Virus record (IMG/VR): IMGVR_UViG_3300037245_001213 | Location: 7,053-71,052 of that record | DNA length: 64,000 nt | Source of the DNA: a virus | Reading direction: 5' to 3' (one strand) | Shown: one piece after another, positions 7,921-49,394 of the stretch | Layout: every line of letters begins with the position of its first letter | Position numbering within the stretch: the first letter of the stretch is position 1 | Translations under genes and position numbers: made by a program | Notes under the pieces: generated by a model | What the model was told of the DNA's origin: nothing | The model's database searches: none | Seen by the model: only the letters and a program-made list of their open reading frames with translations

Positions 7921-7928
7921 GAGAGACG

Positions 7929-8141: not shown

Positions 8142-8165
8142 GTAAACCTTGGAAATGGAGATAAG

Positions 8166-9184: not shown

Positions 9185-9212
9185 TTGACTTTTCGTGTTT
9201 ACGTAGTATACT
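9185..9212 (+). promoter_or_regulatory. sigma70-like promoter TTGACT-N16-TATACT
   Basis: Starts 2 nt after the tRNA-like gene; RBS AGGAGAGAACA before ATG 9230. Confidence 0.5.
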
Positions 9213-9825: not shown

Positions 9826-10019
9826 GCACTGACTACACTGTCCACAAACAAGGCACTAAGGAAGTCGTCATAATTGAAAGCTCGGCGAGGTACAACCTGG
9901 ACCTGGACGAGTACGGGCCAGATGACGGTTACGTGCTGGGCCCTCAAGGTATGACAGCCGAAGAGGCGCACGCGATTCAAAGGAGACGTAATGAGCAGTA
10001 TAGTAGAGAAACTCACTAA
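9822..10019 (+). CDS. hypothetical protein
   Basis: ORF chained by overlap. Confidence 0.4.
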   Translation: MSTDYTVHKQGTKEVVIIESSARYNLDLDEYGPDDGYVLGPQGMTAEEAHAIQRRRNEQYSRETH

Positions 10020-27766: not shown

Positions 27767-27839
27767 CTCCGTGGCCAGGACTCGAACCTGGGACATTTTG
27801 ATTAACAGTCAAACACTCTACCGACTGAGTTACCACGGA
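27767..27839 (-). tRNA. tRNA-Asn (GTT)
   Basis: Full cloverleaf on minus strand: acceptor TCCGTGG/CCACGGA, D-stem ACTC/GAGT, anticodon arm TTTGA-CTGTTAA-TCAAA, variable ATGTC, T-arm CCAGGTTCGAGTCCTGG, discriminator G. Confidence 0.8.
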
Positions 27840-28473: not shown

Positions 28474-28501
28474 ATTATACCACACTTCTGGGGGTTGTCA
28501 A
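28474..28501 (-). promoter_or_regulatory. consensus sigma70 promoter TTGACA-N16-TATAAT (minus strand)
   Basis: rc reads TTGACAacccccagaagtgtggTATAAT followed by gtaaGGAGAgaATGG. Confidence 0.5.
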
Positions 28502-34481: not shown

Positions 34482-34754
34482 TTATTCTTTGTACAAAAGA
34501 ACACGAATCTTACCGATAGGACTTTCGGACAGTCGACCTTCGTGGTCCATCAGTATGGCATAGCTCCAAGCCCCGCTGCTAGTGAACGCGACAAGATCGT
34601 AGAACTTGCCTGTGCCTTTGCCGTCCTCCTCGACAGTCACTCGCAACATGCCCTCGTTCACTGAGTCCCTGACCTTAGGCTCAGGCCCTACCTGTTCACA
34701 GGTCACGCTAATTTGTTTGTCAGTCACCACACGATCCTCCTTTAGTAATGTCAC
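34482..34754 (-). CDS. hypothetical protein
   Basis: ORF. Confidence 0.45.
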   Translation of the reverse strand: MTLLKEDRVVTDKQISVTCEQVGPEPKVRDSVNEGMLRVTVEEDGKGTGKFYDLVAFTSSGAWSYAILMDHEGRLSESPIGKIRVLLYKE

Positions 34755-37332
34755 AGATGTCAGTTGCTTCTTCTACAAGTTCCTTGCCAGAATGCTTCAT
34801 CGCTTCCTTGTACGCTACAGGTGTCAAGGGCTGCCCGTCGCGGGCCCCGTCAGGGTAGACTGTGATTCCCCTCAGTTTCGGTAGATGCTTCATCAGCATG
34901 GTACCAAAAGGCCTGACGGTGCTCTCGTTGTTCTGCTCCGACCCCCAGTGGGGAAGATTCACTGTACTGCTAATGCCATGGTCGACTGCTTGCTGCATCC
35001 AAGATTGGAACTCTACCCGACGCTCAACATCAACAGACAGGTCATAGGCGTCCTCAATCATTGCAAGGTCGATGCCTCCAGCGATAAGCCTGGCCGCTGT
35101 CGGGTCAACGACGTACTGGTAGTGCCAAGTGTTATGCTTCAAATAACGTCGTTTATAAGCGACACAGAAGATTGGCTCAATACCACTGGTCGTTTCTGCA
35201 ACGATGGATGTAGTTCCTGTTGGCGCAATCGCTCGCGTCTTAACGGGTCGGCTGACCCCAAGTTCATCCGCCCACTCGTGAGCAAACTTAGTTGACTTCT
35301 GGTAAACTTCGAGCCATTTCCAAAGTTCATGGTCTGGAGCGTATGGTTTACCTCTCTTGAGTAGCCATTCGTGAACTCCCATGAGGCCCAGGCCGAGTCG
35401 TCGGTTCTTTGTACGTGTCCGGTCGATTGCGGAGTATGGGACGTCGGAATAGAGGCTACCGGCGAGCAGATAGATCGTTCCCATTTCGACAAGACTCTCG
35501 AACTCATCAAGCGAATCGACCCTGGCAAGATTGATGGACCCGAGATTGCAAATGTCATCGGTATCCTTACTTGATACTTCAGTGCAGTTGGCAATTATCA
35601 CCCCCTCTGCGCAAAATGAATGTTCAGGAACTTTCACATCACAACAATAAACATCTGCCGGAGAACCTTCGACAACTTCCAACACTTTCACAGGACTAGG
35701 GCGGTAAGGCACATAGTCTTCACACCTTAATTGAAGCCTCTTTGTAGGTATTAGACGTAGAAAGTTTTGGACACTCTCGGCCCTGATGCTTAGGTTGCTG
35801 CAATCTGCCCCTCCAAACCCAGATTTGATTCCTCCAGAAATGGTCGATAAGATACCAAATCTAAATAGTTCGCCTTGAACATCCCCCAAGAAACCCTCGT
35901 CGCTTTGGCTCAATCTTACTCGTTGACCTTCCTCTTGATAACTGCCATCAGCGTCAAACATGCCAGCCAACCATGATGCAGACTCTTCAAGAGTCATACT
36001 AGGTACCATGGATTTGACAAATCCTTGAAAGATTCCCGCCTTGAAGTACGTCCTTGTATAACCCCCCGGCGTGTCCATGTTAATAGAGGTCATCATTGAA
36101 CAATCCATGAAATCTAAGCAATGCTTCTTCTCAGAGGTGCATAGCGTTAGTTCACCTCCACCATATTTATTGATTGAACCATCGCCAAACACGAAGCCAT
36201 TAGTGTACCATCGAGAAGAAAACTTTTGAGGGCTTACCAATGGCAAGGACCAACGTAAATCATCTCCAGGCTTCAGATTTGAGGCGGCCGTGCGGCGAAT
36301 CTCTTTCAGTCCCCGTTCCTTCCCATGTCCTTCGTACACTTCTAATAGGAATTCATGTGATGGGTCGCAAGTGATACTACCTAATGAGAACATCACTGTG
36401 ACTGTCGGAACATTCTCACCTGTCTGCTTAAACACCGTAGGTGCCCATTGTTCCCCTGTCCACACTGTTATTGGTTTATCTACGACGTCGCCTACACACA
36501 CATGTCCATCAGGAGTAAGAACTTTAGTGCCCCCGACCACAGGTGCATTACGATAAATCTCCAGTGAATCTCTTCCAAGGTTAATCGAGAACCCAGGCTC
36601 CCCTGTCTTCAGCATCTGGCGTATAGTCTCCCAGTACACGGACTGTGCCAGCGTATGCTTAGGATGTTCGTCGTCATGGTAGGCCTTGAAGAACTCGTCA
36701 TTCAACCCGACCGATATATTCGTACAGTCCAAGGTGGCTGGGAAGTTGAAGTCCTTGGCCTTCAATTCACGCACACCTTGAGGCCAGTCCTTGATGTGAA
36801 TGAACTTCATAATGTCAGGGTGGTCCCATCGGAGACCTGCCCAGATGGCTGAACGTCGACTCCCTCCTTGCATGATCCCTCGACCGCATTCGTTCAGCAT
36901 CTGCATCAGCGCAATAGGCCCCGTTGCAAACCCGCCTGTTCGTCGAATCTTGGCGCCTTCGCCACGAATGTCACTGTACTCTACTCCGATTCCAGCCCCG
37001 GTCATCAGAGCCATGCTCGACTTATGCAACAGGTCAGACCACCCCTCGCGTGAGTCATGGACTCCGAGCAAGACGCAGTTCTGCACCTGGTGATAAGATC
37101 TTCCCGACGCGTACAAGTAGCGACCGGCTGGAACAAACTTCCTTTCGGTAATGGTTTTGCAGATATCTTGAGAGAGACCATCACGCATCGTGTAACCAAT
37201 AGCCTTCATTGGGTGCTTGGTCGCGCGGTACGCAATGTTACCCCATCCTTCTGGCCCATCCGCCAACTGATGGGAATACTTCTGGTGCATGATAGTCCGC
37301 GCAAAGTCGGACATAGGTACATCCTTAATCAT
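34720..37332 (-). CDS. ribonucleotide reductase catalytic subunit (probably class II, B12-dependent) interrupted by an intein
   Basis: Extein motifs QNCVLLG, ...YRNA|CTEV (N-x-C-x-E), CNLGSINL. No NrdB-like gene in the window. Confidence 0.8.
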   Translation of the reverse strand: MIKDVPMSDFARTIMHQKYSHQLADGPEGWGNIAYRATKHPMKAIGYTMRDGLSQDICKTITERKFVPAGRYLYASGRSYHQVQNCVLLGVHDSREGWSDLLHKSSMALMTGAGIGVEYSDIRGEGAKIRRTGGFATGPIALMQMLNECGRGIMQGGSRRSAIWAGLRWDHPDIMKFIHIKDWPQGVRELKAKDFNFPATLDCTNISVGLNDEFFKAYHDDEHPKHTLAQSVYWETIRQMLKTGEPGFSINLGRDSLEIYRNAPVVGGTKVLTPDGHVCVGDVVDKPITVWTGEQWAPTVFKQTGENVPTVTVMFSLGSITCDPSHEFLLEVYEGHGKERGLKEIRRTAASNLKPGDDLRWSLPLVSPQKFSSRWYTNGFVFGDGSINKYGGGELTLCTSEKKHCLDFMDCSMMTSINMDTPGGYTRTYFKAGIFQGFVKSMVPSMTLEESASWLAGMFDADGSYQEEGQRVRLSQSDEGFLGDVQGELFRFGILSTISGGIKSGFGGADCSNLSIRAESVQNFLRLIPTKRLQLRCEDYVPYRPSPVKVLEVVEGSPADVYCCDVKVPEHSFCAEGVIIANCTEVSSKDTDDICNLGSINLARVDSLDEFESLVEMGTIYLLAGSLYSDVPYSAIDRTRTKNRRLGLGLMGVHEWLLKRGKPYAPDHELWKWLEVYQKSTKFAHEWADELGVSRPVKTRAIAPTGTTSIVAETTSGIEPIFCVAYKRRYLKHNTWHYQYVVDPTAARLIAGGIDLAMIEDAYDLSVDVERRVEFQSWMQQAVDHGISSTVNLPHWGSEQNNESTVRPFGTMLMKHLPKLRGITVYPDGARDGQPLTPVAYKEAMKHSGKELVEEATDICDITKGGSCGD
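35587..36543 (-). mobile_element. intein with LAGLIDADG homing-endonuclease domain inside RNR (about aa 264-582; boundaries approximate)
   Basis: Block A-like GGTKVLTPDGHV, block B SLGSITCDPSHEF, LAGLIDADG pair NGFVFGDGSI and LAGMFDADGSY, C-terminal ..GVIIAN followed by extein Cys. Confidence 0.7.
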
Positions 37333-37725
37333 CTACTTCTCAATCCTTGTAATAGGTGATCCGTACTATTTCGCCCTCTGTGACCGTGACACATTCAGGA
37401 AAACTCAACTCAGTGTAGCGGTCACTGACAGCGACCACTTCTACTTTGAACACTTTCCTGCACACGTCCGATCGGGTACAATAAATTCTTATCTCGGCTT
37501 TCATTTGATCAGCCTAACTGCGCACGCAAATAAACCGAGAACCACAGCGGCAAGGATGACGCACCCGATATAAAGAAGGGGCTGCAAACAGAGTTCAATT
37601 TCGCTCATAAATACCTCAGAAAAGTAATGCCCCGGCTGTAAATGCGAGGGACGCTATAGCGAACACCAGCAATAATGCCAGCACAATGTAAAATTTGATG
37701 ACGATTGATATAGTATCTTCGACGC

Positions 37726-37968
37726 TCATTGCAGTTTCCTCTCGATCACACGGATGCTGTCGCCCTCATTAGAATAGCAACAATAGTATACCCAGCCTTC
37801 CTTTTCCATTGGATCGGTCAATTCTTCGGTTGTGCCCTCCCCGCGCCCATAACGCTCAATCATCTCTCCGGCCTCTTTCTTAGCATAGACGAGGGCGTCC
37901 TTCTTAAAGAAGAACGGGGTTACCTCGACGTCCGCGTGCCGATCCTCCCAAACAACAATGTAAATCAT
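37726..37968 (-). CDS. hypothetical protein
   Basis: Internal start with RBS AAGGGAG. Confidence 0.35.
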   Translation of the reverse strand: MIYIVVWEDRHADVEVTPFFFKKDALVYAKKEAGEMIERYGRGEGTTEELTDPMEKEGWVYYCCYSNEGDSIRVIERKLQ

Positions 37969-38147
37969 CACTGCTCCCTTGAATCGAAGAACTCGGACAG
38001 CATTCCACCGAATGTGAAACACCCCAGCAGTAAAAGTGGCAAAAGGAAAAAGCCGACCCAAAAAGAAACTCCAAACATTAAATGCTCCAATCATTGTATT
38101 TCACTAACGCGACAATCAAACAGGACACACAAACCACCCATGTACAT

Positions 38148-38366
38148 TCAAGAACAGGCCACCCCATTCACGTACTCGGGTTCGGATTTCCTGTGAGAGC
38201 CAAGGTGCATGTCGAGTGTCATCTGTGCATATGGAGAGAAGATATCATCCACATGAATCATGTTGAGGCGAAAACCCTCACGTTCAGAAAAATAACGTAT
38301 CAGTTTCCTATCGAAAGAGTCCTCAGGTATCAACAGGACACAATCACCTTCAGGTTTAAGTATCAT
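38148..38366 (-). CDS. hypothetical protein
   Basis: ORF. Confidence 0.35.
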   Translation of the reverse strand: MILKPEGDCVLLIPEDSFDRKLIRYFSEREGFRLNMIHVDDIFSPYAQMTLDMHLGSHRKSEPEYVNGVACS

Positions 38367-38430
38367 TTCGCCACCCTATACAAGAGAAAGATAATTGCCA
38401 TACCGATAAAAATACACACTAGAGTAGTAG

Positions 38431-38955
38431 TCATACTTTCTCCTTGTGTGCTAGGACAACGACCAAGCCGATCAGCACCATGCCGACCAAAACCAGGATG
38501 AACGTGCTTGGCTCTGGTACGCACAGTACACTCCAAGCTGACACATGGCTCACGCCCTTCCATCCCAGCATCTCCGTGCTCCAAGCCCCGCTGCTAGTGA
38601 ACGATGAAGCCAGGAAGTGACGCTTGCTAAACTCAATAGTCTCACATGGGTCGCGCACGCAGAAGGCTGCCCACTCATTACCGGCCTTAATGGTGATTAA
38701 GTTGACCTGGCCCGGGTAGTACCAGCCACCGGTCACCCAACCGTCTGGCGTGAACAAACTGCCCCCTACTGCGAAATCGTTGTCAACGCCAGGGACCTCG
38801 GTGCTACCCAGAAGAGTTGCGTCAATCCCCAGTAGGGTGTCCACGATACCCGGCAGATCGTTCCCGGGGAACGTTCCGAGGTAGGTGTCTGCCCGCACTA
38901 ATTGGGTAGGCATAACTAGTATCAATAGCGCCAGTGTCAATTTCTTAACCATCAT
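38431..38955 (-). CDS. secreted PEP-CTERM protein B
   Basis: Signal peptide MVKKLTLALLILVMPTQLVRA; C-terminal VPEPSTFILVLVGMVLIGLVVVLAHKEKV (PEP + TM + basic). Confidence 0.55.
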   Translation of the reverse strand: MMVKKLTLALLILVMPTQLVRADTYLGTFPGNDLPGIVDTLLGIDATLLGSTEVPGVDNDFAVGGSLFTPDGWVTGGWYYPGQVNLITIKAGNEWAAFCVRDPCETIEFSKRHFLASSFTSSGAWSTEMLGWKGVSHVSAWSVLCVPEPSTFILVLVGMVLIGLVVVLAHKEKV

Positions 38956-39619
38956 GCGTCCTCTCGCCTCCCCAAGCCATGCCGAGGAAAGCAAGGGCCA
39001 CCACCAGCAGTACGATGGTTGTTGGCTCAGGGGCTTGCATGAAGATCTGGTCCTGTCGATGGCCATCGCCCTGGAACAAGTTCAAGACACGGACCCGACC
39101 AATCCCAGTAGGGTTTGCGTTCACCGCTTGCAGGTGGAAAGCGGCCCCAAGTGTGAGATCAGATACCTCGTCCTCGATATACCAGATAGCGTTCTGCAAA
39201 GCCCTCGCTGACGCGCCTCGCCCAGAACCGTAGTCATAACCGATCAGTGTCCCTTCGACGAAGCTTTGGTACAACCAGGCTGTCAGAGGACTAAGCGGGT
39301 CGAAGCCCCCTGTAGCCCCTCCTACGCCGCCTAGCACGGCACCAGTATTTACCTCGAAACGATAGGTTCCGCCGATAGACACATTCTCGTTATGCTCCAG
39401 GCAGAAAGATTGAAAAGACACGCCGTCAAGGGCAGGGACACCACCCACAAAGTCCAGGTCATCGGTGCTCAACTTGAACTCACCTCCATCTCCAGCGAAG
39501 GTCCCTTGCACGCGTGTCAAGGATAATTCCCCAGCATGGCAGAAAGCAGTGAACAAGGCCGCGATGGCAACAACAGTCAGCAGTGCCTTGAAAATCTTCA
39601 TCTTCATCTTAATATCCAA
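38945..39619 (-). CDS. secreted PEP-CTERM protein A (Gly-rich)
   Basis: Signal peptide MKIFKALLTVVAIAALFTAFCHA; C-terminal APEPTTIVLLVVALAFLGMAWGGER. Confidence 0.55.
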   Translation of the reverse strand: MDIKMKMKIFKALLTVVAIAALFTAFCHAGELSLTRVQGTFAGDGGEFKLSTDDLDFVGGVPALDGVSFQSFCLEHNENVSIGGTYRFEVNTGAVLGGVGGATGGFDPLSPLTAWLYQSFVEGTLIGYDYGSGRGASARALQNAIWYIEDEVSDLTLGAAFHLQAVNANPTGIGRVRVLNLFQGDGHRQDQIFMQAPEPTTIVLLVVALAFLGMAWGGERTHDG

Positions 39620-40076
39620 TTTCTTCTAGGTAAGTAAGGAACATCATGTCAAGCACCTTAAACTCGCTCAACTTTCTTTCGTCCGGCACGTCAGGGTTAG
39701 GGTCTCTTACTACAGACCCATCCCAAAACACGTAGTGTGTCCAATCCTTTCTTGTCTCCGAGTGTACTGTAACAATGGCAGGAAGTGACATTTCGACTAC
39801 TAAGGTAAAGGAGTCGTCAGGCTCAAGTAGAGACAGATCTTCATCAGAGTTTTCCTGAGTTATCAGTATACCTGAATAGATTCCATGGTTACCGAGGTAA
39901 GTCAATATGGACCGAGTCTTGATAAAATGTTTCTTCTCCTTCTGGCTCCATTGAAAAGGCAGGCAACGCAGCGCGTATGCCAACTCTTCCCCTGTCGCCA
40001 TGGCTGCCACGGCGGCGCCACAGAACATAGAGTCTTTGGGTTGCTTCACGGTCGAGAAACTTTCAGGCATTAACAT
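39609..40076 (-). CDS. C39-like (papain-fold) cysteine peptidase, tentative
   Basis: MFCGAAVAAMATG resembles the C39 active-site motif CG(P/A)AALAM; downstream THYVFWDG carries a candidate catalytic His. Confidence 0.4.
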   Translation of the reverse strand: MLMPESFSTVKQPKDSMFCGAAVAAMATGEELAYALRCLPFQWSQKEKKHFIKTRSILTYLGNHGIYSGILITQENSDEDLSLLEPDDSFTLVVEMSLPAIVTVHSETRKDWTHYVFWDGSVVRDPNPDVPDERKLSEFKVLDMMFLTYLEEIGY

Positions 40077-40402
40077 TACGTCGATACCTCTGGACGCCGG
40101 ATCAACGGGATCTCTTTCGTTTCCCCGTCAATAATAACACAGTTGAAATGAGTCTCACAGTCGCTACGATCTCCCATCGTCCGTAAGAGTTCCTTCTTCT
40201 CTTTTGGAGAGAGGAACTTAGGTCGGAAGGAAAAGGCTTGTACTTCCTCCGGGGCAAACCCGGCTTCCTCAGTGTGCTCCCACAGTTTTAACGTTCGCAG
40301 GAGCACACTCTGCTCGTTATGGAGTTTCACTACTTTGTCTGTCATACTTTGCATTTCAGAATCCGAACGCCAGGTCCAAGAGGGCCCGCACACAATATGC
40401 AA
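40076..40402 (-). CDS. hypothetical protein
   Basis: ORF. Confidence 0.45.
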   Translation of the reverse strand: MHIVCGPSWTWRSDSEMQSMTDKVVKLHNEQSVLLRTLKLWEHTEEAGFAPEEVQAFSFRPKFLSPKEKKELLRTMGDRSDCETHFNCVIIDGETKEIPLIRRPEVST

Positions 40403-40459
40403 AGCCCCAGAAACAGAAGAAACCTAACACGAAGAAGGTCCACAACTTCAAGCAGTCTT

Positions 40460-40684
40460 TCATGTCTTCGCTCCGCACACAAGATTGCGAATCAGGTTGA
40501 GGCCAAATGCCATGAGACTGAACTGCCACCACAGGATAGCCGGAAGAGTCGGCCAAATAGCTAGAACAGAGTAAGTGTAAATCAGGGACAAGACTGCACC
40601 AATCGCTGCCAGGATTCCGACAAAAAGAATAAGGTAAGCAAAGATGCCACAGATGGCGACGCAACAAAGAGCAATGCCCTTCAT
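40460..40684 (-). CDS. small integral membrane protein (2-3 TM)
   Basis: RBS AGGAGGTTGATTATG; MKGIALCCVAICGIFAYLILFVGILAAIGAV... Confidence 0.45.
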   Translation of the reverse strand: MKGIALCCVAICGIFAYLILFVGILAAIGAVLSLIYTYSVLAIWPTLPAILWWQFSLMAFGLNLIRNLVCGAKT

Positions 40685-40835: not shown

Positions 40836-40863
40836 AGTATATCACACTTTCGGTAGATGTCAA
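40836..40863 (-). promoter_or_regulatory. sigma70-like promoter TTGACA-N16-TATACT (33-bp repeat copy 1)
   Basis: rc reads TTGACAtctaccgaaagtgtgaTATACT. Confidence 0.45.
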
Positions 40864-41295: not shown

Positions 41296-41622
41296 CTACA
41301 GTATATCACACTTTCGGTAGATGTCAAATCGAAATGGAGAAAGTTTTCTACCACAAGTCGAAGTATCTGTGTCAATAAACACACCCGGCACGTACGTCAG
41401 AGCCTCGGCCACTGCGTACGAGCCATCAGGGTTGCGTTGTTGTGTAGTCACTTGGACTACACACCCGCCAGTTACTTGCATTGCCTTCGTGCTCTTCATC
41501 CAGCCTTCCTTCTCGCTGGACGCCTTACACAGAAGCTGGAACATGTCACCGTCCCCGAATACCTTTACGTCTGGGACGTTCTCTTTTGTCCCTGAGATAT
41601 CGTTGTTACCTAGTGTCTTCAT
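41296..41622 (-). CDS. hypothetical protein
   Basis: Start MKTLGNND with RBS AGGAGTAG. Confidence 0.5.
   Translation of the reverse strand: MKTLGNNDISGTKENVPDVKVFGDGDMFQLLCKASSEKEGWMKSTKAMQVTGGCVVQVTTQQRNPDGSYAVAEALTYVPGVFIDTDTSTCGRKLSPFRFDIYRKCDIL
41300..41327 (-). promoter_or_regulatory. sigma70-like promoter-like repeat copy 2
   Basis: Near-identical 33-bp repeat of the 40833-40865 element; overlaps the last codons of the upstream CDS. Confidence 0.35.
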
Positions 41623-41635: not shown

Positions 41636-41663
41636 AGTATACCACACTTTTGTTCCAAGTCAA
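41636..41663 (-). promoter_or_regulatory. sigma70-like promoter TTGACT-N16-TATACT with AAAGTGTGG element
   Basis: rc reads TTGACTtggaacaaaagtgtggTATACT. Confidence 0.45.
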
Positions 41664-41727: not shown

Positions 41728-42987
41728 TCAGCATGACACGTCATCCATCATGTCGATCTTGTACCGCTTCGGACCCTTCTTCTCGTAGGGGCAACGCAGC
41801 TTGACAGGTAGCCGCCAGGTGATGCCATACTTCTTGTTGACGCCGTGAAGGAGTTGGGAGGGCTCTGTGTAGCCCGTCAACGCGTTGAAGGCGAAGGCAT
41901 CCGTAGCAGGCCATGCTCCATTGATAAGCATCTCACCGTTAAGCTCGGTCGTGCTACCAGGGCGATGGAAGTGACCGCAGCAATGGTACCGAACCGGGAC
42001 GCCCTTCTGGACAGTGTTCAGGGCAAGGATCTTGTACCGACGCTTCTCCAGGCCATACCAGGGCACGCCCAGGCTGGAACGGATATCATCACCATGAAAG
42101 ATGTGGAACCCGACACCGTCAATGTCCACGTTCACTGAGTAACTGTTCGGGATCACGAAGGTTACATTCTCCATGTCCGCACAGTACATCTCCGCTGTCT
42201 TGGCGATCAAATAGTCCCAGTTGTCATGCGCTCCATGGTAGTCCTTCTTCATGCTGCGACGCCCGTGGTTGCCCGGGACGTAGATGATGTTGACCTGATC
42301 GAAATACGGGGCCAGGTCGCGGAACATCAGACTGTGCAACTGACCGATCGCCAGGCTGTTCTTGAAGGCGTTCCGGAAATAGGACCGGCTGGTGTGGCCA
42401 TGGATCTCACCTGACGTATGGTCGCCATAGGCCAGGACAGTGAGCGACTGGAACCGGTACTGAGGCGCCAGCGTCCGCTGAGTCCACTTCAGGATCGTGT
42501 CCACGTATCGCTCAGCCCTACACATGCTGATCGGGAAGTCATAGGTCTCCAGCCCACCTGTGTCCGAAGGCGTCACAATCTGGTCATGGTGGCCATCTGA
42601 CAGGTGCATGACCAAATGCTCATTGATCTGGTCACCGCCTGTGTAAACAGGCCTGGCGTCCGGCAATGCCAACATAGGCTGTACCCGTCGATCCATCTCG
42701 TCCACGATGGCAGAGAACAGACCTTGAGTCTTGGCCGCCGACTTCAACTTACGCCTTGAGTCGTTGCGCTCTTCACGGAGATGCTCAATCTCGCCACGCA
42801 TCTTCAAGAACTCAGTGTCCTCAATCATTTCAGGCGTAGGGACGTCCTTGTGAACTCGCCCCGTAGCAATGTCAGAGATGACTGACCGGCTGATCTCAAA
42901 TTTCTCGCCAATCTCTGCCTGGGTCAAGCGCTTCTCCGACAGCATTGTCTTAATGTCGACCACTTGATCCTTATTTAGCTTCGTCAT
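41728..42987 (-). CDS. HTH-domain-containing metallophosphoesterase
   Basis: N-terminal LTQAEIGEKFEISRSVISDI HTH; MPP motifs LSDGHHD, YGDH, PGNHGRR, FHGDD, CGHFH. Confidence 0.55.
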   Translation of the reverse strand: MTKLNKDQVVDIKTMLSEKRLTQAEIGEKFEISRSVISDIATGRVHKDVPTPEMIEDTEFLKMRGEIEHLREERNDSRRKLKSAAKTQGLFSAIVDEMDRRVQPMLALPDARPVYTGGDQINEHLVMHLSDGHHDQIVTPSDTGGLETYDFPISMCRAERYVDTILKWTQRTLAPQYRFQSLTVLAYGDHTSGEIHGHTSRSYFRNAFKNSLAIGQLHSLMFRDLAPYFDQVNIIYVPGNHGRRSMKKDYHGAHDNWDYLIAKTAEMYCADMENVTFVIPNSYSVNVDIDGVGFHIFHGDDIRSSLGVPWYGLEKRRYKILALNTVQKGVPVRYHCCGHFHRPGSTTELNGEMLINGAWPATDAFAFNALTGYTEPSQLLHGVNKKYGITWRLPVKLRCPYEKKGPKRYKIDMMDDVSC

Positions 42988-44896
42988 TCAACTCTCCAAT
43001 TAGAACAGGGTTACCGCGCTCAGTTGTATCAGCAATCATGTACTCGACAGCCTTCAGGAAGTTCCCATCAGGCGGCGAGAACATTATCTTCTTTAGATCA
43101 AGTCCTTCTAGTTCAATACGGTGCTCAGACCGATATGTTTCATTATCAATCATCTCGATGCAGATATCGACAAACTTCTCCGCGTCCTTGGTTGTCAACT
43201 CCGGCATACCTATCTGACGAAGCAAATGTGATGCCGCTTTATTGTAGAACCGGTCTCCTTCCAGAGTCACAACAGGTAGTCCAAGGTAGAAAGCCTCGAC
43301 GATAGTGTTGTAACCCCCGAAGGGGAAAGAGTTTACAGCGAAATCACCCTTCTCTGACCTTTCCATATATTCTGCATAATGCAAGCTATGATGAATGACA
43401 GAGTTAGGAAGTAGTTGCGAAATCACCTCACTGAAGGGCACAAAGCCCCCATACCTGTTTATAGCAGGTGAAGGGTAGAAATGCCACTCATGCTCAGTAG
43501 TAGCCCGCCGACTGATCTCGCGAAGAACTTCAAGCATCATCACGTTGTACTTATCGGGGCCCCACACGCAGTTGATCTCGACCGGGGACTTCTCCACCCA
43601 ATTGTTCTTTTTCTCATAGGAGGGCCACGCAGGGTGCTGAGCCAAGCCTGGCAGAAGAATCATCTGCTCCGAGTATTGGTCTCCACAGTCCTTTTCGACA
43701 TCCCCACCTACAAAGTAGTCAATGCAATTGTTGTGGCCCGTCGTGGCCGGGTGACCATACCCAACGGCCTGTACTGGAGCAAGACGGCAATTCGAGAGCC
43801 AGATGGATTCCTCAAGCATCCCAATGTCAGGGAAGTAGGCCAACTGGAAATCGTTGTCCTTCACCTCAGGAGGAAAGGCCAGGTTCCCATCTTTGAACTT
43901 CACATTGCAGACATTATCAAATCCATCTATCATCAGGTCCTCAGGTACGTGTTCGCCCAGGTGAATTAAGGTGAGTTTGTACTTGCCTTTCAGTTCTTCG
44001 ACCAAAGGAGATGCCGACTTGTATACAGCATGATTACGGTGCCACTTACCAGAGATTATCGCGATGCTCTTGGGATCAGGTTTGTTGTTAATCTTCACGT
44101 TGAGCACTTTGGAGCACGCCTTGTTGATCCGGCTCTTCACTTCCAGGTCGAGTTTAGGCGCGAAGTAAGTGGTGGTAAAGTACAACGCGGAGATCTGAGG
44201 ACAAGGTGGCGCCCATCGGTCATCCATGTTCTCCAAATGGTGGAGGTAGGAATAGTGTAGGAATCGAGTAGGGTTACTGGTACCCAATACGAAAGAGTTG
44301 AACCAGATGGAAGCCATCTCGGGATTCACGTCAAACAACTTCGATTGCTCGATCTCGACCTCGCAACGCGCGTTCAATAGGAACAACAGGCGTTGGTAGT
44401 TATTCTGCTGACGAAGGACGTGCTTCACAACAGGAGTGGTTACATGGTAGTTTGAGGTGGCCACCAGGTTGGAAAAGACATGACCCATAGAGATCAGCAT
44501 CTTGGCATCCATATCGGCGAACTTGATGTCCCCAGTCATCACGATGAAAACCATCATCACAAAGTCATCAATGTTCCTCCGGTCCTGTGAACTGTATGTT
44601 GTATACGAATTACGTTCAAAGAAGATAAGAATCGAGATGATCGCCTGCGCTACCTTGTGAGGGTCGCCGTTGATGATGGCTTTCAGGTACTTAATACGCT
44701 TAACTACCGGAAGACCTTCTTTTGGTGCGCCCGGCATAATGTTCAGATGGTTCTTAGACATTTCTTTACTCCTATTAGGGCGTTCGGCCGACCATAAAGT
44801 TGTGGACAGCGATAAGCCATGTGAAAATACTTCCTTCTGGGCAACAGATTTACTGCTATCAAACATTGCTTTCCTCGTAACGTTGCAGTAATCCAT
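42971..44896 (-). CDS. GT41-family (O-GlcNAc-transferase-like) glycosyltransferase, no TPRs
   Basis: C-terminal FPFGGYNTIVEAFYLGLPVVTLEGDRFYNKAASHLLRQIGMPEL resembles OGT NGHTT..LWMGVPVVT..ASRVAAS..G..EL. Confidence 0.5.
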   Translation of the reverse strand: MDYCNVTRKAMFDSSKSVAQKEVFSHGLSLSTTLWSAERPNRSKEMSKNHLNIMPGAPKEGLPVVKRIKYLKAIINGDPHKVAQAIISILIFFERNSYTTYSSQDRRNIDDFVMMVFIVMTGDIKFADMDAKMLISMGHVFSNLVATSNYHVTTPVVKHVLRQQNNYQRLLFLLNARCEVEIEQSKLFDVNPEMASIWFNSFVLGTSNPTRFLHYSYLHHLENMDDRWAPPCPQISALYFTTTYFAPKLDLEVKSRINKACSKVLNVKINNKPDPKSIAIISGKWHRNHAVYKSASPLVEELKGKYKLTLIHLGEHVPEDLMIDGFDNVCNVKFKDGNLAFPPEVKDNDFQLAYFPDIGMLEESIWLSNCRLAPVQAVGYGHPATTGHNNCIDYFVGGDVEKDCGDQYSEQMILLPGLAQHPAWPSYEKKNNWVEKSPVEINCVWGPDKYNVMMLEVLREISRRATTEHEWHFYPSPAINRYGGFVPFSEVISQLLPNSVIHHSLHYAEYMERSEKGDFAVNSFPFGGYNTIVEAFYLGLPVVTLEGDRFYNKAASHLLRQIGMPELTTKDAEKFVDICIEMIDNETYRSEHRIELEGLDLKKIMFSPPDGNFLKAVEYMIADTTERGNPVLIGELNDEAK

Positions 44897-45983
44897 CTAC
44901 CAAAATTAAGATGGTGATTGATAGTCCCATCGATTTGATCTCAGCGGCTATGTCAGCGGCTCGCCAGGTCGTAGTCACGATGATTTCACTTGGTTTCAGA
45001 TCTCTCAGTGTCTCCGGAGAGTGAATCTCGAAGTCCGTCCCAGGAACGTAACTTCCCCACTTACGGCTGTCCGAGTCTATGACCATTGCGGCTTTTAGAT
45101 TGAGCATGTTGATAGTGTTCGCGCACTTTCCCGCGCCTCCCCAGAACACAGGTGTCTCCAGGCAGTTCAGGTGAGCCCCAGTGGCTAGAAGGTTGTCGTA
45201 GGCCAGGGCGATGCGTGTGGTGACAGGACACTTGGTGTCGGCCAGGCTGGCGGTGGCCAATAGAACCTCGTCGTTGTAGAGTTGCTCTACCTCGTAGGTG
45301 TTCCACCCCGACAAGTCCAGTAGGGTCGTTAGGCTATCCGGCGTGAAGTGTTGAGGGTGCTCATACACCCAGTCTTCCAGTCGGCCTGCCTCAAAGGCAG
45401 GTAGGATATTAGGCACCTCGATAATCAGGTAAGGAGTCAGGTGGCAGCGGTGAGCGTTGTACGACAGGTCTTCTAGAAAGCTCCTAGGGCTGGCGAAGTG
45501 CTCAAGCACATGACGCATTATGATAGCATCAGGCTTATCCATTTCCATAGAAATACCATCGAAGTACGTATTATGTGACTCGGTGACTTCCGAGCAAAAC
45601 ACATAATCATCTGAAGGCTCGTAGGCGACATAATTATGGCCGTTGAACAGGGCTGCAAACTCACCACGTCCTGCCCCAATCTCAACAATAATACCATTGC
45701 AGTCCTGGCACAGGTCTTTGACAACCCAGGCCACGTCTTGCATGTGCGTGGCCCACTCTTCGCCTTTGTTGTACATCGTACATCCGCCAGCATGACACTG
45801 GTCGAAGTCAGGGTCGTAGGATGCGTTGAAAGTGTGGGTGCATTGCAAGCACTGCCTGATACTTACCGGGAATCGACGTGCATAAGCATTAGGCTGAGTA
45901 GGTAAATCAAGTACACTGAGAGGCAGTAGATCGAGATCCGCCACTCGGTATGTGAGAGCAGAATTACAAACTGGGCACTTCAT
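44859..45983 (-). CDS. Zn-ribbon SAM-dependent methyltransferase (TylCIII/NDP-hexose C-methyltransferase-like architecture)
   Basis: N-terminal CPVC...CLQC, motif I VEIGAGRGEF, extended C-terminal domain. Confidence 0.55.
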   Translation of the reverse strand: MKCPVCNSALTYRVADLDLLPLSVLDLPTQPNAYARRFPVSIRQCLQCTHTFNASYDPDFDQCHAGGCTMYNKGEEWATHMQDVAWVVKDLCQDCNGIIVEIGAGRGEFAALFNGHNYVAYEPSDDYVFCSEVTESHNTYFDGISMEMDKPDAIIMRHVLEHFASPRSFLEDLSYNAHRCHLTPYLIIEVPNILPAFEAGRLEDWVYEHPQHFTPDSLTTLLDLSGWNTYEVEQLYNDEVLLATASLADTKCPVTTRIALAYDNLLATGAHLNCLETPVFWGGAGKCANTINMLNLKAAMVIDSDSRKWGSYVPGTDFEIHSPETLRDLKPSEIIVTTTWRAADIAAEIKSMGLSITILILVDGLLQRYEESNV

Positions 45984-46143
45984 TCCATTCCTCCTGGTCT
46001 TGTGCGTACTGATCAGCTACCAAATAGACGCCTTGAGAGTCATCCTCTACTCGGCAAATCCGCTGGTACTCTCCAGAGTCTAAGAATATCTCAGAGTCAG
46101 GAGGCATCGAACTCAATTCATTTACGAGGTCTTCTACTGTCAT
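45964..46143 (-). CDS. hypothetical small protein
   Basis: Internal start MTVEDLVNEL overlapping the ligase stop. Confidence 0.35.
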   Translation of the reverse strand: MTVEDLVNELSSMPPDSEIFLDSGEYQRICRVEDDSQGVYLVADQYAQDQEEWNEVPSL

Positions 46144-47177
46144 CCTAGATCCTTTGCTCCTTTTCGCTGATAGTAGTCCACCGAGACCGACTTGAGAATC
46201 AAGCGACCTCCGAGGATATCTGAATGCCGTTCGCAAAGTGGCTTGATAACCACCCCTTCGCGACCTTTGAACTTGCAGCGGATGTTATCATCAAGGGTCA
46301 TGGTAGTTGCGCCATTAGTAGCCGTCTCTACAATCTTCTGATCAAACGGTCCACAATACATTGAATTGACAATTGGTACATTATGCTTATCAGTCCAGAT
46401 GCGGAAGTTCACATCCGACATGTACTGGCCGTCTATTGAAATATCGAAGGCCCTGAACCCGGGCACAGGTTGACCATAGTCCATGTCCTGGATGCCCTGC
46501 CCGAAGATCTCACCGAACACGATTACATTACTGCGCTTGAGGCCTGACAGTTCGCGGAGAATCGGCTCAACAATCTCCATCGGCTTCCAGTACATTGTCC
46601 GAGGGTCGCCTTCTACTCGTCTGGTCTTGTGAGAGCCCGCAACGAGTTCCCCGTCGATAATCCCAAGGCGCACGTTCGTGCCATGTATCTTTTCCGTGAT
46701 ACGCACCATTTCATCCGTGAAGACGCCTGGGTGGTTACGGATATTCTCGATTGAAGTGTACTGGTGAAAGGCATCAAGAGGCGGCAGGCAGTCGCCGCCA
46801 AGTACCCTCACAGGGGGGTGGTACTTCCTACCATCATACTGATCCGTTACATCCAAGCCATATTTACCATTTATAGGTCCTTGCAGGAACCCAAAGCTCG
46901 GGACTCCCCGCAGGCGACAGGCGCTGACCCGGCACTGGGTCTTCATCCCGTCCCCAGGGTAGACAGCGTGCTTCAGGTACTGCTTCACCCCCAGGCGCAC
47001 GGCCACATCTTCAGGGAGAAGCATATCGGGTGGGAAGTAGATGCCAGCATCACCTACCTTATATGCCCCCTTCTGGACGACTACAGTGTAGCCGAGCACC
47101 TGGACCACTTCCAGGCGATCAGCGTTAGGATGGTCCTCGACGCTGTTGATACGTTCGATGGTTATGGCAGTCTTCAC
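46140..47177 (-). CDS. ATP-dependent RNA ligase (Rnl2-like) fused to N-terminal tRNA-binding OB domain
   Basis: N-term IERINSVEDHPNADRLEVVQV...YKVGD (CsaA/Trbp111-like tRNA_bind). Ligase motifs EKIHGTN, VIVFGEIFG, RAFDISIDG, REGVVIKP. Confidence 0.65.
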   Translation of the reverse strand: MKTAITIERINSVEDHPNADRLEVVQVLGYTVVVQKGAYKVGDAGIYFPPDMLLPEDVAVRLGVKQYLKHAVYPGDGMKTQCRVSACRLRGVPSFGFLQGPINGKYGLDVTDQYDGRKYHPPVRVLGGDCLPPLDAFHQYTSIENIRNHPGVFTDEMVRITEKIHGTNVRLGIIDGELVAGSHKTRRVEGDPRTMYWKPMEIVEPILRELSGLKRSNVIVFGEIFGQGIQDMDYGQPVPGFRAFDISIDGQYMSDVNFRIWTDKHNVPIVNSMYCGPFDQKIVETATNGATTMTLDDNIRCKFKGREGVVIKPLCERHSDILGGRLILKSVSVDYYQRKGAKDLG

Positions 47178-48925: not shown

Positions 48926-49394
48926 GGTATTCCAAAAGAAAGGTTCCGTCGTCTGTAGCCTTACGTTCAAGTGTACCATTCAGGCCACGTTTGTCAAGGT
49001 CAGTGTATATCATATTGAAGATCTTCCTGGCCTCTGGGCTGGCCGAAGCCCTACAACCCCGCTTAACAGCATGGTGCCACTCTGAGAGTGGTCCGGTTAT
49101 AATCATTGCCAGGATGCCCCGAGCCACAGTGTCAGTCACAATATGGGGCATCCCCGCCAACTGCACGATCTCAGGTACGTCGCGTTCATCAACCGCGATT
49201 AGGTAGGCTAATGTGTAGAATGCCTCTACATCATCCATGCCACCTTCTACCAATCCCGCGATGCACAACATATTGTGGACCTCTTTGGTCAATGCTGTGT
49301 CATCCGAGATGCCCCTGCCCAGCGCCTTGCGGGCAATAGGCAGGAAGGTGTCAAGGTCAAATGCAGAGAACATGATTAACTGAACAGCGTTCAC
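48918..49394 (-). CDS. hypothetical protein
   Basis: ORF. Confidence 0.45.
   Translation of the reverse strand: MNAVQLIMFSAFDLDTFLPIARKALGRGISDDTALTKEVHNMLCIAGLVEGGMDDVEAFYTLAYLIAVDERDVPEIVQLAGMPHIVTDTVARGILAMIITGPLSEWHHAVKRGCRASASPEARKIFNMIYTDLDKRGLNGTLERKATDDGTFLLEYHG

What the first reader, a model, noticed from the sequence alone, without database searches (positions are those of the whole stretch)
38363..40684. Phage-encoded pair of PEP-CTERM proteins next to a C39-like cysteine peptidase and tiny membrane peptides
Two adjacent secreted proteins (38431-38955 and 38945-39619) each have an N-terminal signal peptide and a C-terminal PEP + TM helix + basic tail (VPEPSTFILVLV...AHKEK and APEPTTIVLLVV...GGER).

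This is the exosortase sorting signal of Gram-negative EPS-producing bacteria. I do not recall it being described as phage cargo.

Directly upstream in the same operon is a 155-aa protein whose N-terminal FCGAAVAAMA plus downstream HYVFWDG resembles the Cys/His active site of C39 (double-glycine leader) peptidases. Several 23-74-aa hydrophobic ORFs flank the block (37507-37730, 38363-38434, 40356-40684).

Possible roles are surface remodelling of the host such as superinfection exclusion or biofilm/EPS interference, hijack of the host exosortase, or a secreted peptide system.
Basis: partly seen in the sequence, partly recalled or inferred. Interest (0 to 1): 0.75.

Follow-up and report, generated by a model that had tools for sequence, protein, structure and literature searches.

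The report
Phage-borne covalent adhesin with PEP-CTERM anchor
A previously undescribed tailed phage, probably of Planctomycetota, carries two exported proteins with the exosortase (PEP-CTERM) sorting tail, and one of them has the fold and motifs of the thioester "covalent glue" domain so far described only in Gram-positive adhesins.

Summary
Two adjacent minus-strand genes, ORF A (38431-38955) and ORF B (38945-39607), each encode a signal peptide and a C-terminal PEP + TM + short tail. A passes the curated PEP-CTERM cut-offs. B falls just below them, but many of its homologues match the models.

The main new result concerns ORF B. It is a thioester domain (TED):
- All three TED motifs are invariant: FC69LE, LQ138NAIW and Q185D.

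Cellular relatives are common in Planctomycetota, Verrucomicrobiota and other Gram-negatives. They always carry exosortase-type tails, and in four loci an exosortase gene lies within 6 kb.

The B-A pair is conserved in the same order in five related phages (dN/dS of B about 0.13). Phage copies form one clade nested in Planctomycetota.

ORF C (39609-40076) has a C39-like peptidase fold with invariant Gln/Cys/His/Asp. It is absent from the other four phages and never neighbours B elsewhere, so it is separate cargo.

Likely mechanism: Sec export, host-exosortase processing, then covalent surface adhesion of infected cells. The biological role is inferred, not shown.

The parts
40836..40863 (-). 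Sigma-70-like extended -10 promoter candidate (TTGACA-N14-TGATATACT) heading the block
   Evidence: 11 of 12 consensus matches plus TG. It is one of 8 copies of TTGAC-N14-TGnTATACT in the window, against 0.06 expected. It lies inside a 44-nt direct repeat present three times. Function is inferred, not shown.
40460..40684 (-). 74-aa two-TM membrane protein, conserved upstream of ORF B
   Evidence: phmmer finds it in L008 (4e-27), L001 (3e-13), L065 (1e-5) and L066 (2e-3), always upstream of the B homologue. No family match.
40076..40354 (-). 92-aa soluble protein of unknown function (the ORF listing ORF runs to a TTG at 40402)
   Evidence: Homologues in L008 (3e-46), L066 and L065 (about 1e-18), absent from L001. 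The L008 copy starts at the equivalent Met.
39609..40076 (-). ORF C: stand-alone C39-like cysteine peptidase domain (Gln12, Cys19, His114, Asp125). Separate cargo inserted between the 92-aa gene and ORF B
38945..39607 (-). ORF B: signal peptide + thioester domain (TED) + PEP-CTERM anchor, 220 aa
39401..39403 (-). Codon of Cys69 (F-C-L-E), the predicted thioester cysteine
   Evidence: Invariant in 42 sequences. A [YFLWM]C-phi-zeta motif is present in 73 of 77 family ORFs. It matches the TED motif [YFL]C-phi-zeta (PMC4450167). It sits at the end of strand 64-69 in the model.
39182..39196 (-). Codons Gln138-Trp142 (Q-N-A-I-W), equivalent to the TED TQxx-phi-W helix motif
   Evidence: Q138 and W142 are invariant. 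They lie in helix 130-144 of a three-helix bundle. QxxphiW is present in 76 of 77 family ORFs. Motif defined in PMC4450167 and PMC6194298.
39050..39055 (-). Codons Gln185-Asp186, the predicted thioester-forming glutamine (phi-Q-zeta-phi-phi) on the last beta-strand
   Evidence: Q185 and D186 are invariant. They lie in strand 182-191 of the model. In TEDs the bond-forming Gln lies on the C-terminal strand Q.
38948..39031 (-). PEP-CTERM sorting signal of ORF B (P193-E-P195, TM helix, tail GGERTHDG)
   Evidence: PF07589 18.9 bits, TIGR02595 14.5 bits, both just below cut-off. P193 is invariant and P195 is nearly invariant (at least 90%) across the 42-sequence family. The basic cluster is weak, with a single Arg.
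38431..38955 (-). ORF A: signal peptide + about 120-aa ectodomain of unknown fold + PEP-CTERM anchor (PEP codons 38509-38517). Its start overlaps the end of ORF B by 11 nt
   Evidence: PF07589 22.6 bits (above GA 20.7) and TIGR02595 16.8 bits (above 16). Homologues lie downstream of B in L008, L001, L065 and L066 at 29-57% identity. Invariant: W95-A-A-x-C99, P103-C104, G123-x-W-x-T127, H137. An HMM finds no copy in 130 bacterial or metagenomic B-family loci.
37501..37608 (-). 35-aa single-TM mini-ORF downstream (possible gene)
   Evidence: Homologue in L008 at E 1e-7. The neighbouring 37-aa ORF (37616-37729) and 23-aa ORF (38363-38434) have no detectable homologue and are unverified.

Best explanation
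The conserved unit is a phage accessory module: a 74-aa membrane protein, ORF B and ORF A. It sits in a variable cargo slot between the exonuclease/Lockin genes and the ribonucleotide reductase of a novel tailed phage. The host is most likely a member of the Planctomycetota.

**Proposed steps.**
1. The block is transcribed by host RNA polymerase from a sigma-70-like promoter at 40863-40836 (inferred).
2. A and B are exported by Sec through cleavable signal peptides (read from sequence).
3. B folds into a minimal class-I-like thioester domain. It autocatalytically forms a Cys69-Gln185 thioester (inferred from fold plus three invariant motifs).
4. The C-terminal PEP + TM + tail of both proteins is recognised by the host exosortase, since the 64-kb window encodes none. 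The exosortase releases or transfers them to the cell surface or matrix (inferred from the exosortase model).
5. The exposed thioester reacts with an amine on a target, forming an isopeptide bond, as in Gram-positive TED adhesins.

**Net effect proposed.** Infected cells become covalently sticky. They stay attached to neighbouring host cells, aggregates or particles, which favours local phage transmission. This parallels the TED adhesin of plasmid pLS20, which promotes donor-recipient contact.

**ORF A and ORF C.** ORF A is a fast-evolving, phage-lineage-specific partner of unknown fold. ORF C is an unrelated, independently inserted C39-like cysteine peptidase.

**Sub-confidences.**
- B is a TED with an exosortase-type anchor: about 0.85.
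- A thioester actually forms: about 0.7.
- Surface display depends on host exosortase: about 0.6.
- The adhesion/transmission role: about 0.3.

The overall confidence given (0.5) is for the molecular mechanism as a whole, not for the ecological role.

For: **Motifs.**
- F68-C69-x-E71, Q138...W142 and Q185-D186 are invariant over 42 sequences with 35% mean identity.
- They sit on the strand, helix and strand expected for TEDs.
- 73 of 77 and 76 of 77 family ORFs keep the Cys and QxxphiW motifs.

**Sorting signal.** PF07589 and TIGR02595 hits. Family tails are PEP, PAP, PLP, PVP or PDG followed by TM and RRR.

**Exosortase link.** PF09721 exosortase genes (E 1e-44 to 1e-62) lie about 1 kb from family members in a Pirellulales MAG and a Phycisphaerales MAG. 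They lie 4-5 kb away in two Verrucomicrobiota MAGs. The window has no polytopic membrane protein.

**Selection and ancestry.**
- The B-A pair is in the same order in five phages.
- dN/dS of B is 0.126.
- Phage copies form one NJ clade. Its sisters are P0019, named Planctomycetes bacterium RBG_16_64_10, and P0086, an unnamed protein on a 637-kb contig. The clade is nested among Planctomycetota, mainly Phycisphaerae.
- There is no GC anomaly.

**Expression.** A promoter family has 8 copies against 0.06 expected, one directly upstream of the block. A overlaps B by 11 nt.

**Precedent.** The pLS20 TED adhesin raises conjugation about 1000-fold in liquid (PMC8092201).
Against: - Sequence methods do not link B to TEDs. 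There is no PF08341 hit for B, and only 1 of 42 members hits it, at E 0.045.
- There is no PDB sequence hit. hhalign against the pLS20 TED finds nothing.
- B scores just below the PEP-CTERM cut-offs and its cytoplasmic tail is only weakly basic (GGERTHDG).
- Phage tails read PEP, whereas the closest Planctomycetota homologues mostly read PAPG or PTP. Host and exosortase specificity are therefore unresolved.
- The host is not identified.
- There are no expression data.
- Nothing bears directly on adhesion versus other surface roles.
- The role of ORF A is unknown.
- The NJ tree has no support values.
Confidence: 0.5

Rival explanations
1. Superinfection exclusion or receptor masking. The surface-displayed TED covalently modifies or occludes the phage receptor, or another envelope protein, on the infected cell. 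ORF A acts as a specificity partner. This blocks adsorption by the same or competing phages.
For: - The molecular evidence is the same as for the main explanation: exported, surface-directed, reactive thioester.
- ORF A evolves fast, at 29-57% identity against 55-86% for B. That pattern is expected for a component in an arms race.
- The genes lie in an accessory slot under a host-type promoter.
- Phage-encoded envelope proteins that block reinfection are well known (own knowledge: T5 Llp, P22 SieA).
Against: - No known exclusion protein uses a TED.
- Cellular homologues are abundant, stand-alone and often in tandem arrays, which suggests a generic adhesive or matrix role rather than receptor-specific masking.
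- There are no data on adsorption.
Confidence: 0.2
2. ORF C, the two PEP-CTERM proteins and the small membrane peptides form one secretion or processing system. The C39-like peptidase would mature a double-glycine peptide or the PEP-CTERM proteins themselves.
For: - The genes are tightly packed on one strand behind one promoter candidate.
- ORF C has a C39-like fold and catalytic residues.
- B ends in ...WGG|ERTHDG, a Gly-Gly on the cytoplasmic side.
Against: - ORF C is absent next to the B-A pair in four of five phages. One of these is the 86%-identical L008, which keeps the same GGER tail.
- ORF C relatives in L003, L060-L064 and Microcystis phage Mvi-JY20 have no PEP-CTERM neighbours.
- No B-family locus out of about 130 has a C-family gene.
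- The window has no ABC transporter or other polytopic membrane protein.
- ORF C has no signal peptide, so it cannot reach the periplasmic PEP motif.
Confidence: 0.05
3. Passenger genes. B and A are host-derived morons carried without a phage-specific function, or B is a TED-like fold that no longer forms a thioester and serves as an inert matrix or surface protein.
For: - B clearly derives from a cellular family.
- It sits in a slot whose content varies between related phages.
- No function has been tested.
Against: - The pair is retained in the same order in five phages whose B proteins have diverged to 55% identity, with synonymous sites saturated.
- dN/dS is 0.13.
- Cys69, Gln138, Trp142 and Gln185 are strictly conserved in all phage copies.
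- A has no cellular counterpart at all.
- GC content matches the phage.
Confidence: 0.15
4. Virion component. B and/or A decorate the phage particle and give it covalent attachment to the host surface.
For: - A covalent adhesin would be useful on a virion.
- A tail protein gene lies in the same window.
Against: - Both proteins have Sec signal peptides and C-terminal membrane anchors. Tailed-phage virions assemble in the cytoplasm.
- The genes lie in the replication and nucleotide-metabolism region, not the structural module.
- BFVD holds no viral structure with a significant match to this model.
Confidence: 0.03

Closest known systems
Class I thioester domains (TEDs) of Gram-positive TIE adhesins (SfbI, CpTIE, PnTIE, Cpa/Spy0125, FNE)
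   Same: - Same three motifs in the same structural places: [YFL]C-phi-zeta, TQxx-phi-W and phi-Q-zeta-phi-phi.
- Both are exported and attached through a C-terminal sorting signal cut by a dedicated transpeptidase-like enzyme.
   Different: - Sequence identity is only 9-13%, with no Pfam TED hit.
- There is no stalk of isopeptide or ester domains; the TED is followed directly by the anchor.
- The anchor is PEP-CTERM/exosortase of diderm bacteria rather than LPXTG/sortase.
- It is found in Planctomycetota, Verrucomicrobiota, Desulfobacterota and Acidobacteriota, and in a phage. The literature read here describes TEDs as Gram-positive only.
- The thioester is not demonstrated.
TIE adhesin of conjugative plasmid pLS20 (gene 34; NC_015148 6477-8780)
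   Same: A mobile genetic element encodes its own TED adhesin to make its host cell stick to other cells, which aids transfer of the element (PMC8092201).
   Different: - It is a class II TED on a long stalk, 767 aa, in a Gram-positive host, on a plasmid rather than a phage.
- hhalign finds no sequence similarity.
- A role in phage transmission is only an analogy.
PEP-CTERM/exosortase substrates (TIGR02595/PF07589), e.g. NF038129-family proteins and floc-forming PepA of Zoogloea
   Same: - Signal peptide, PEP motif, TM helix and short tail at the extreme C-terminus.
- 25 of 42 B-family members match NF038129, best E 2.3e-9, and 10 match floc_PepA.
- Exosortase genes lie next to cellular relatives.
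   Different: - The copies here are encoded by a phage that has no exosortase of its own in the window.
- B is below the curated cut-offs.
- The ectodomain is identified here as a TED, which the NCBIfam names do not state.
Peptidase C39 domains of PCAT1, ComA and LahT (double-glycine leader peptidases)
   Same: - It has the same ordered Gln, Cys, His, Asp residues, and the Cys is at a helix N-terminus.
   Different: - It is a stand-alone 155-aa cytoplasmic protein with no ABC transporter.
- There is no Pfam C39 hit above threshold.
- No substrate peptide was identified.
- It belongs to a family of about 375 cluster representatives, six of the copies located here being on phage or viral contigs.
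Bacterial alpha-2-macroglobulin / complement C3 thioester domains
   Same: They also use an internal Cys-Gln thioester for covalent capture, and they occur in Gram-negative bacteria (own knowledge).

Membership tests
PEP-CTERM / exosortase substrate (PF07589, TIGR02595) | HMM score at or above the curated cut-off | tested here: inconclusive
   ORF A passes: PF07589 22.6 against 20.7, TIGR02595 16.8 against 16. ORF B is just below: 18.9 and 14.5. 25 of 42 B homologues match PF07589 at E<0.1.
PEP-CTERM / exosortase substrate (PF07589, TIGR02595) | N-terminal signal peptide plus Pro-Glu-Pro, TM helix and basic cluster at the extreme C-terminus | tested here: met
   Read directly from the translations and hydropathy. 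A ends in AHKEKV. B has only one Arg (GGERTHDG), so its basic cluster is weak. The tails are conserved in five phages.
PEP-CTERM / exosortase substrate (PF07589, TIGR02595) | An exosortase (EpsH/Xrt, PF09721) is present in the same organism | tested here: inconclusive
   The host is unknown. The window has no polytopic membrane protein. Exosortase genes (E 1e-44 to 1e-62) lie 1-5 kb from cellular B homologues in Pirellulales, Phycisphaerales and Verrucomicrobiota MAGs.
PEP-CTERM / exosortase substrate (PF07589, TIGR02595) | Cleavage or transfer at the PEP motif by exosortase | not testable with these tools
   Needs expression in an exosortase-positive host with mass spectrometry of the C-terminus.
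Thioester domain (TED, PF08341; TIE adhesins) | TED fold: beta-barrel plus three-helix bundle | tested here: met
   [not shown]
Thioester domain (TED, PF08341; TIE adhesins) | [quoted passage not shown] | tested here: met
   F68-C69-L-E71. C69 is invariant in 42 sequences. The motif is present in 73 of 77 family ORFs. It sits at the end of strand 64-69. Motif definition from PMC4450167.
Thioester domain (TED, PF08341; TIE adhesins) | TQxx-phi-W motif on the central helix | tested here: met
   A-L-Q138-N-A-I-W142 lies in helix 130-144. Q and W are invariant. Thr is replaced by Leu. The papers note that no residue of this motif is universally conserved.
Thioester domain (TED, PF08341; TIE adhesins) | Bond-forming Gln (phi-Q-zeta-phi-phi) on the C-terminal beta-strand | tested here: met
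   Q185-D186 are invariant and lie in strand 182-191. Family variants such as AQDVLV fit the motif exactly.
Thioester domain (TED, PF08341; TIE adhesins) | Significant sequence match to the TED profile | tested here: not met
   There is no PF08341 hit for ORF B at E<=1. Only 1 of 42 members hits it, at E 0.045. There is no PDB sequence hit. hhalign against the pLS20 TED gives probability 0.25%. I therefore file it as a structurally and motif-defined TED-like family, not as a Pfam TED member.
Thioester domain (TED, PF08341; TIE adhesins) | Physical Cys-Gln thioester (17-Da mass loss, amine reactivity) | not testable with these tools
   Model coordinates were not returned, so even the Cys-Gln distance could not be measured. 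It needs intact-mass MS of wild type against C69A and Q185A.
Peptidase C39 (PF03412 / C39-like) | Papain-like fold closest to C39 domains | tested here: met
   [not shown]
Peptidase C39 (PF03412 / C39-like) | Ordered catalytic Gln (oxyanion), Cys, His, Asp | tested here: met
   Q12, C19, H114 and D125 are the only invariant columns in 62 diverse family members. Cys19 starts helix 19-28 and His114 is in strand 113-118.
Peptidase C39 (PF03412 / C39-like) | Profile match above threshold | tested here: not met
   ORF C has no Pfam or NCBIfam hit. Among 62 relatives, 1 hits PF03412 weakly (0.0077) and 3 hit PF09778.
Peptidase C39 (PF03412 / C39-like) | Fusion to, or pairing with, an ABC exporter and a double-glycine leader substrate | tested here: not met
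   ORF C is a stand-alone 155-aa protein. The window has no polytopic membrane protein. No neighbour is conserved across loci. A systematic search for GG-leader peptides was not done.

The most novel reading that the evidence does not exclude
Thioester-domain covalent adhesins are not confined to Gram-positive bacteria. A large, unrecognised family exists in Planctomycetota, Verrucomicrobiota and other diderms, where exosortase/PEP-CTERM replaces sortase/LPXTG. A lineage of tailed phages has captured one copy and paired it with a phage-specific, fast-evolving PEP-CTERM partner (ORF A). The phage uses it to glue the infected cell covalently to neighbouring hosts or particles. That would be a virus-driven change of host social behaviour that promotes local transmission, analogous to mating-pair adhesins of conjugative plasmids.
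Probability: 0.25. Interest if true: 0.85.

Novelty: new variant of a known kind. Interest (0 to 1): 0.66.

Why it matters
**For adhesin and envelope biology.**
- If the thioester is real, it extends a chemically unusual adhesion mechanism to diderm phyla. In this mechanism a spontaneous covalent bond forms to a target. It has been studied only in Firmicutes and Actinobacteria.
- It links that mechanism to the still poorly understood exosortase pathway.
- It gives exosortase research a small (about 165-residue), well-folded, easily assayed cargo.
- It gives TED research a minimal stalk-less domain.

**For phage biology.**
- This is a candidate case of a virus equipping its host with a covalent adhesin.
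- The consequences (aggregation, particle attachment or superinfection exclusion) are testable in environmentally abundant but little-studied Planctomycetota.

**For annotation.**
- ORF C marks a widespread family of stand-alone C39-like peptidases found on phage and viral contigs, with no known function.

Tried and rejected
**Searches that found nothing.**
- blastn of the block against 50,697 phage genomes: no match.
- tblastn of ORF B against phages and plasmids: no match.
- PHROGs for A and B: none.
- PADLOC for eight proteins of the block: none.
- Profile searches of the B, C and A families against PDB sequences: only chance-level hits.
- hhalign of the B family against the pLS20 TED: no detection. 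The TED assignment therefore rests on fold and motifs, not sequence.
- Foldseek against BFVD: no viral structure matched the B model at E <= 0.001.

**Tools or look-ups that failed.**
- The afdb50 library was unavailable.
The narrow A2 patterns found nothing in IMG/VR.
- The look-up of P0006 was not on record.

**Ideas considered and rejected.**
- A and B are paralogues. Only the tails align.
- B is a lipoprotein. There is no lipobox, and the Cys in the signal peptide is not conserved.
- The phage carries its own exosortase. No polytopic membrane protein is present.
- ORF A is the conserved Lys donor for B. No Lys is invariant.
- ORF C is functionally coupled to the pair. The comparative data argue against it.

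Full report
**1. What is in the sequence**

All genes of the region lie on the minus strand.

- **ORF A** (38431-38955, 174 aa) begins MMVKKLTLALLILVMPTQLVRA|DTY. It ends ...CVPEPSTFILVLVGMVLIGLVVVLAHKEKV.
- **ORF B** (38945-39607 from its ATG, 220 aa) begins MKMKIFKALLTVVAIAALFTAFCHA|GE. It ends ...QAPEPTTIVLLVVALAFLGMAWGGERTHDG.
- **Overlap.** The start of A overlaps the end of B by 11 nt.
- **ORF C** (39609-40076, 155 aa) fills the gap between a 92-aa gene (40076-40354) and B.

A hydropathy scan gives each of A and B one N-terminal and one C-terminal hydrophobic segment.

PEP-CTERM model scores:

| Protein | PF07589 (gathering 20.7) | TIGR02595 (cut-off 16) | Result |
|---|---|---|---|
| ORF A | 22.6 bits | 16.8 bits | passes both |
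| ORF B | 18.9 bits | 14.5 bits | just below both |

25 of 42 relatives of B match PF07589 at E<0.1, best 6.5e-10. A six-frame pattern scan finds no other such tail in the 64-kb window.

**2. The context is a phage of a new lineage**

- The window encodes RtcB, PolA, exonuclease, helicase and primase.
- It also encodes a Phage-tail_3 protein, DNA and RNA ligases, RlaP, ThyX, radical SAM, two ParB-like proteins, methylases, a dGTP-diphosphohydrolase-like protein and two tRNAs.
- There is no nucleotide match to deposited phages. The nearest cultured PolA is 24% identical.
- A promoter-like motif, TTGAC-N14-TGnTATACT, occurs 8 times against 0.06 expected, and its strand follows gene direction.
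- One copy, at 40863-40836, sits just upstream of a 74-aa membrane-protein gene. It probably drives the 74-aa, 92-aa, C, B and A genes.

**3. ORF B is a thioester domain**

B has 132 homologues. In a 42-sequence alignment with 35% mean identity, the invariant residues include F68, C69, E71, Q138, W142, Q185, D186 and P193; P195 is conserved in at least 90% of the sequences.

The AlphaFold model is confident (pLDDT 87.9, pTM 0.81). It shows beta-strands, then three helices, then a beta-hairpin before the anchor.

- They are BaTIE, CpTIE-TED, FNE, SfbI-TED, Cpa, PnTIE-TED, SaTIE-TED and EfmTIE86-TED.

The TED literature defines three motifs (PMC4450167 and PMC6194298). B has all three, in the right structural places:

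| TED motif | Location in TEDs | ORF B |
|---|---|---|
| [YFL]C-phi-zeta (bond Cys) | beta-strand | F-C69-L-E, end of strand 64-69 |
| TQxx-phi-W | central helix | L-Q138-N-A-I-W142, helix 130-144 |
| phi-Q-zeta-phi-phi (bond Gln) | C-terminal strand | Q185-D, strand 182-191 |

Across 77 family ORFs in fetched loci, 73 keep the Cys motif and 76 keep QxxphiW.

Sequence methods do not see the relationship:
- B gives no PF08341 hit. One of 42 members hits it, at E 0.045.
- hhalign against the pLS20 TED fails.

This degree of divergence is usual for TEDs, which share 9-13% identity here. It means the assignment rests on fold plus motifs. The bond itself is not demonstrated.

**4. The family is cellular, diderm and tied to exosortase**

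- A scan of one genome per species found 50 loci. They are in Planctomycetota (Pirellulales, Phycisphaerae, Sedimentisphaerales), Verrucomicrobiota, Desulfobacterota, Acidobacteriota and Sulfuritalea.
- 80 more loci came from metagenomes.
- Genes are often in tandem arrays and sit in ordinary chromosomal contexts.
- Tails read PEP, PAP, PLP, PVP or PDG, followed by a TM helix and RRR.
- Four loci have a PF09721 exosortase gene within 1-5 kb (E 1e-44 to 1e-62). In a Pirellulales MAG and a Phycisphaerales MAG it is directly adjacent.
- The window has no polytopic membrane protein, so the phage proteins would depend on a host exosortase.

The papers read here describe TEDs as Gram-positive only:
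- One says TEDs occur "exclusively in Gram-positive bacteria", LPXTG-anchored.
- An April 2026 preprint says "Firmicutes and Actinobacteria".

No held paper mentions thioester domains together with PEP-CTERM.

**5. The B-A pair is a conserved phage module, and ORF C is not part of it**

Four other related phage contigs carry B followed by A, in the same place between the exonuclease/Lockin genes and the RNR:
- L008 (IMG/VR; B 86% identical)
- L001 (53.6 kb)
- L065
- L066

Other evidence on the pair:
- **Selection on B.** dN/dS is 0.126 against L008. The other pairs are saturated at synonymous sites at 55-61% protein identity.
- **Divergence of A.** A diverges much faster, at 29-57% identity. 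It keeps its signal peptide, WAAxC, PC, GxWxT, His and the tail.
- **Distribution of A.** It has only two database homologues. It has no copy in 130 bacterial or metagenomic B-family loci. It is therefore specific to this phage lineage.
- **Ancestry of B.** In an NJ tree the phage B copies form one clade. Its sisters are P0019, named Planctomycetes bacterium RBG_16_64_10, and P0086, an unnamed protein on a 637-kb contig. The clade is nested among Planctomycetota, mainly Phycisphaerae (no support values).
- **Composition.** GC content shows no anomaly.
- **The 74-aa membrane protein.** It is also conserved in all five phages.

ORF C is absent from all four other phages at this site. In L008 the 92-aa gene abuts B directly. 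ORF C relatives occur elsewhere without PEP-CTERM neighbours: in L003, in five IMG/VR contigs and in Microcystis phage Mvi-JY20.

**6. ORF C**

- It has no family hit. A profile search finds 375 cluster representatives, mostly about 150-aa stand-alone proteins.
- Only Gln12, Cys19, His114 and Asp125 are invariant in 62 of them.
- The model is moderate (pLDDT 67.7), with Cys19 at a helix N-terminus and His114 in a strand.
- It is still a transporter-less cytoplasmic protein with no identified substrate and no link to the pair.
- Its function is open. It could process a peptide or remove a ubiquitin-like modifier; both are speculation.

**7. Mechanism proposed**

1. **Inferred.** Host RNA polymerase transcribes the block.
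2. **Read from sequence.** Sec exports A and B.
3. **Inferred from fold and motifs.** B forms a Cys69-Gln185 thioester.
4. **Inferred from the exosortase model and the genomic linkage in cellular relatives.** Host exosortase processes the PEP-CTERM tails and places the proteins at the surface or in the matrix.
5. **By analogy with SfbI and Cpa.** The thioester captures an amine on a target.

The consequence I favour is covalent stickiness of infected cells that aids local spread. This parallels the pLS20 TED adhesin, which is needed for efficient conjugation. Receptor masking or superinfection exclusion is the main rival. A passenger role is unlikely given the conservation. A virion role is unlikely given the signal peptides and membrane anchors.

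**8. Verdict**

- The real point of interest is a TED-type covalent adhesin with an exosortase anchor. Its family is widespread in diderm phyla, is not described in the literature I could search, and has been captured and maintained by a phage lineage.
- I rate this a new variant of a known kind. Confidence in the molecular identity is about 0.85, and in the biological role about 0.3.

Noticed in passing
window 3364-3391, 6593-6620, 9185-9212 (+); 28474-28501, 40836-40863, 41300-41327, 41636-41663, 48970-48997 (-): A family of near-identical promoter-like sites, TTGAC-N14-TGnTATACT (extended -10). There are 8 copies against 0.06 expected by shuffling, and their strand matches the local gene direction. 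Three of them lie in a 44-nt direct repeat (40823, 41287, 41623) that also holds a small inverted repeat around the -10 (TCTACC...GGTAGA), a possible operator.
   Followed up: partly
window 475-1833, 9991-10923, 46140-47177, 8840-8929, 27766-27839: An RNA-repair tool kit: RtcB ligase, an RlaP-family nucleotidyltransferase, an RNA ligase, and two tRNA genes (a 90-nt tRNA-Thr and a tRNA-Asn). This suggests a counter-measure to host tRNA-cleaving defences.
   Followed up: no
window 34720-37332 (-): The 870-aa ribonucleotide reductase carries an intein-like insert (VLTPDG...HN-C type). The homologue in L001 has a LAGLIDADG_3 hit in the same place. Pfam was not run on the window copy.
   Followed up: no
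window 55930-56823 (+) and 56820-57440 (+): A protein with the dATP/dGTP diphosphohydrolase N-terminal domain (PF18909, E 1e-21) sits next to an RNase_T exonuclease. From my own knowledge, this domain is known from phages with modified (2-aminoadenine) DNA. No PurZ was looked for.
   Followed up: no
window 42971-44896 and 44859-45983 (-): A GT41-like (O-GlcNAc-transferase-like) 641-aa protein and a class I methyltransferase overlap. The GT41-like 596-aa protein is also present in L001 and L065 just upstream of the exonuclease, and the methyltransferase in L001. Possibly a protein or DNA modification pair.
   Followed up: no
L009 6001-6627 (IMGVR_UViG_3300031884_000002, 353,772 bp): A very large, AT-rich 'viral' contig encodes a 208-aa relative of ORF B (26% identity). 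It keeps FCID, LQNVIW and QSQ but ends in a TM helix without a PEP motif. It sits inside a cluster of sugar-nucleotide and glycosyltransferase genes. This may be an independent capture of a TED-like protein by a giant phage or virus, or a misclassified cellular contig.
   Followed up: partly
L054 3701-4693 / 5668-6393; L017 5887-6960 / 7899-8645; L019; L033; L042; L024; L016: In bacterial genomes the TED-like genes are often tandem arrays: four copies in L042 and L024, three in L016. In four MAGs they lie 1-5 kb from an exosortase gene (PF09721). Tail type varies by lineage: PAPG in many Planctomycetota, VPDGG in Verrucomicrobiota, PEP in Desulfobacterota and others.
   Followed up: partly
L150 5028-5519 (Microcystis phage Mvi-JY20, PP438412.1 30065-30556): The only deposited phage genome with a relative of ORF C (32% identity, annotated hypothetical). 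The C39-like stand-alone peptidase family has about 375 cluster representatives and no assigned function. It also occurs in 155-178-kb IMG/VR contigs (L062, L064).
   Followed up: partly
window 37726-38094 (-); L003 821-1246; L008 7450-7677: The C-terminal 75 residues of this ORF (MIYIVVWEDRHADVEV...) form a conserved small protein that follows the cargo slot in three phages. In L003 it comes right after the ORF C homologue, with no B-A pair. The slot's content is therefore swapped between relatives.
   Followed up: partly
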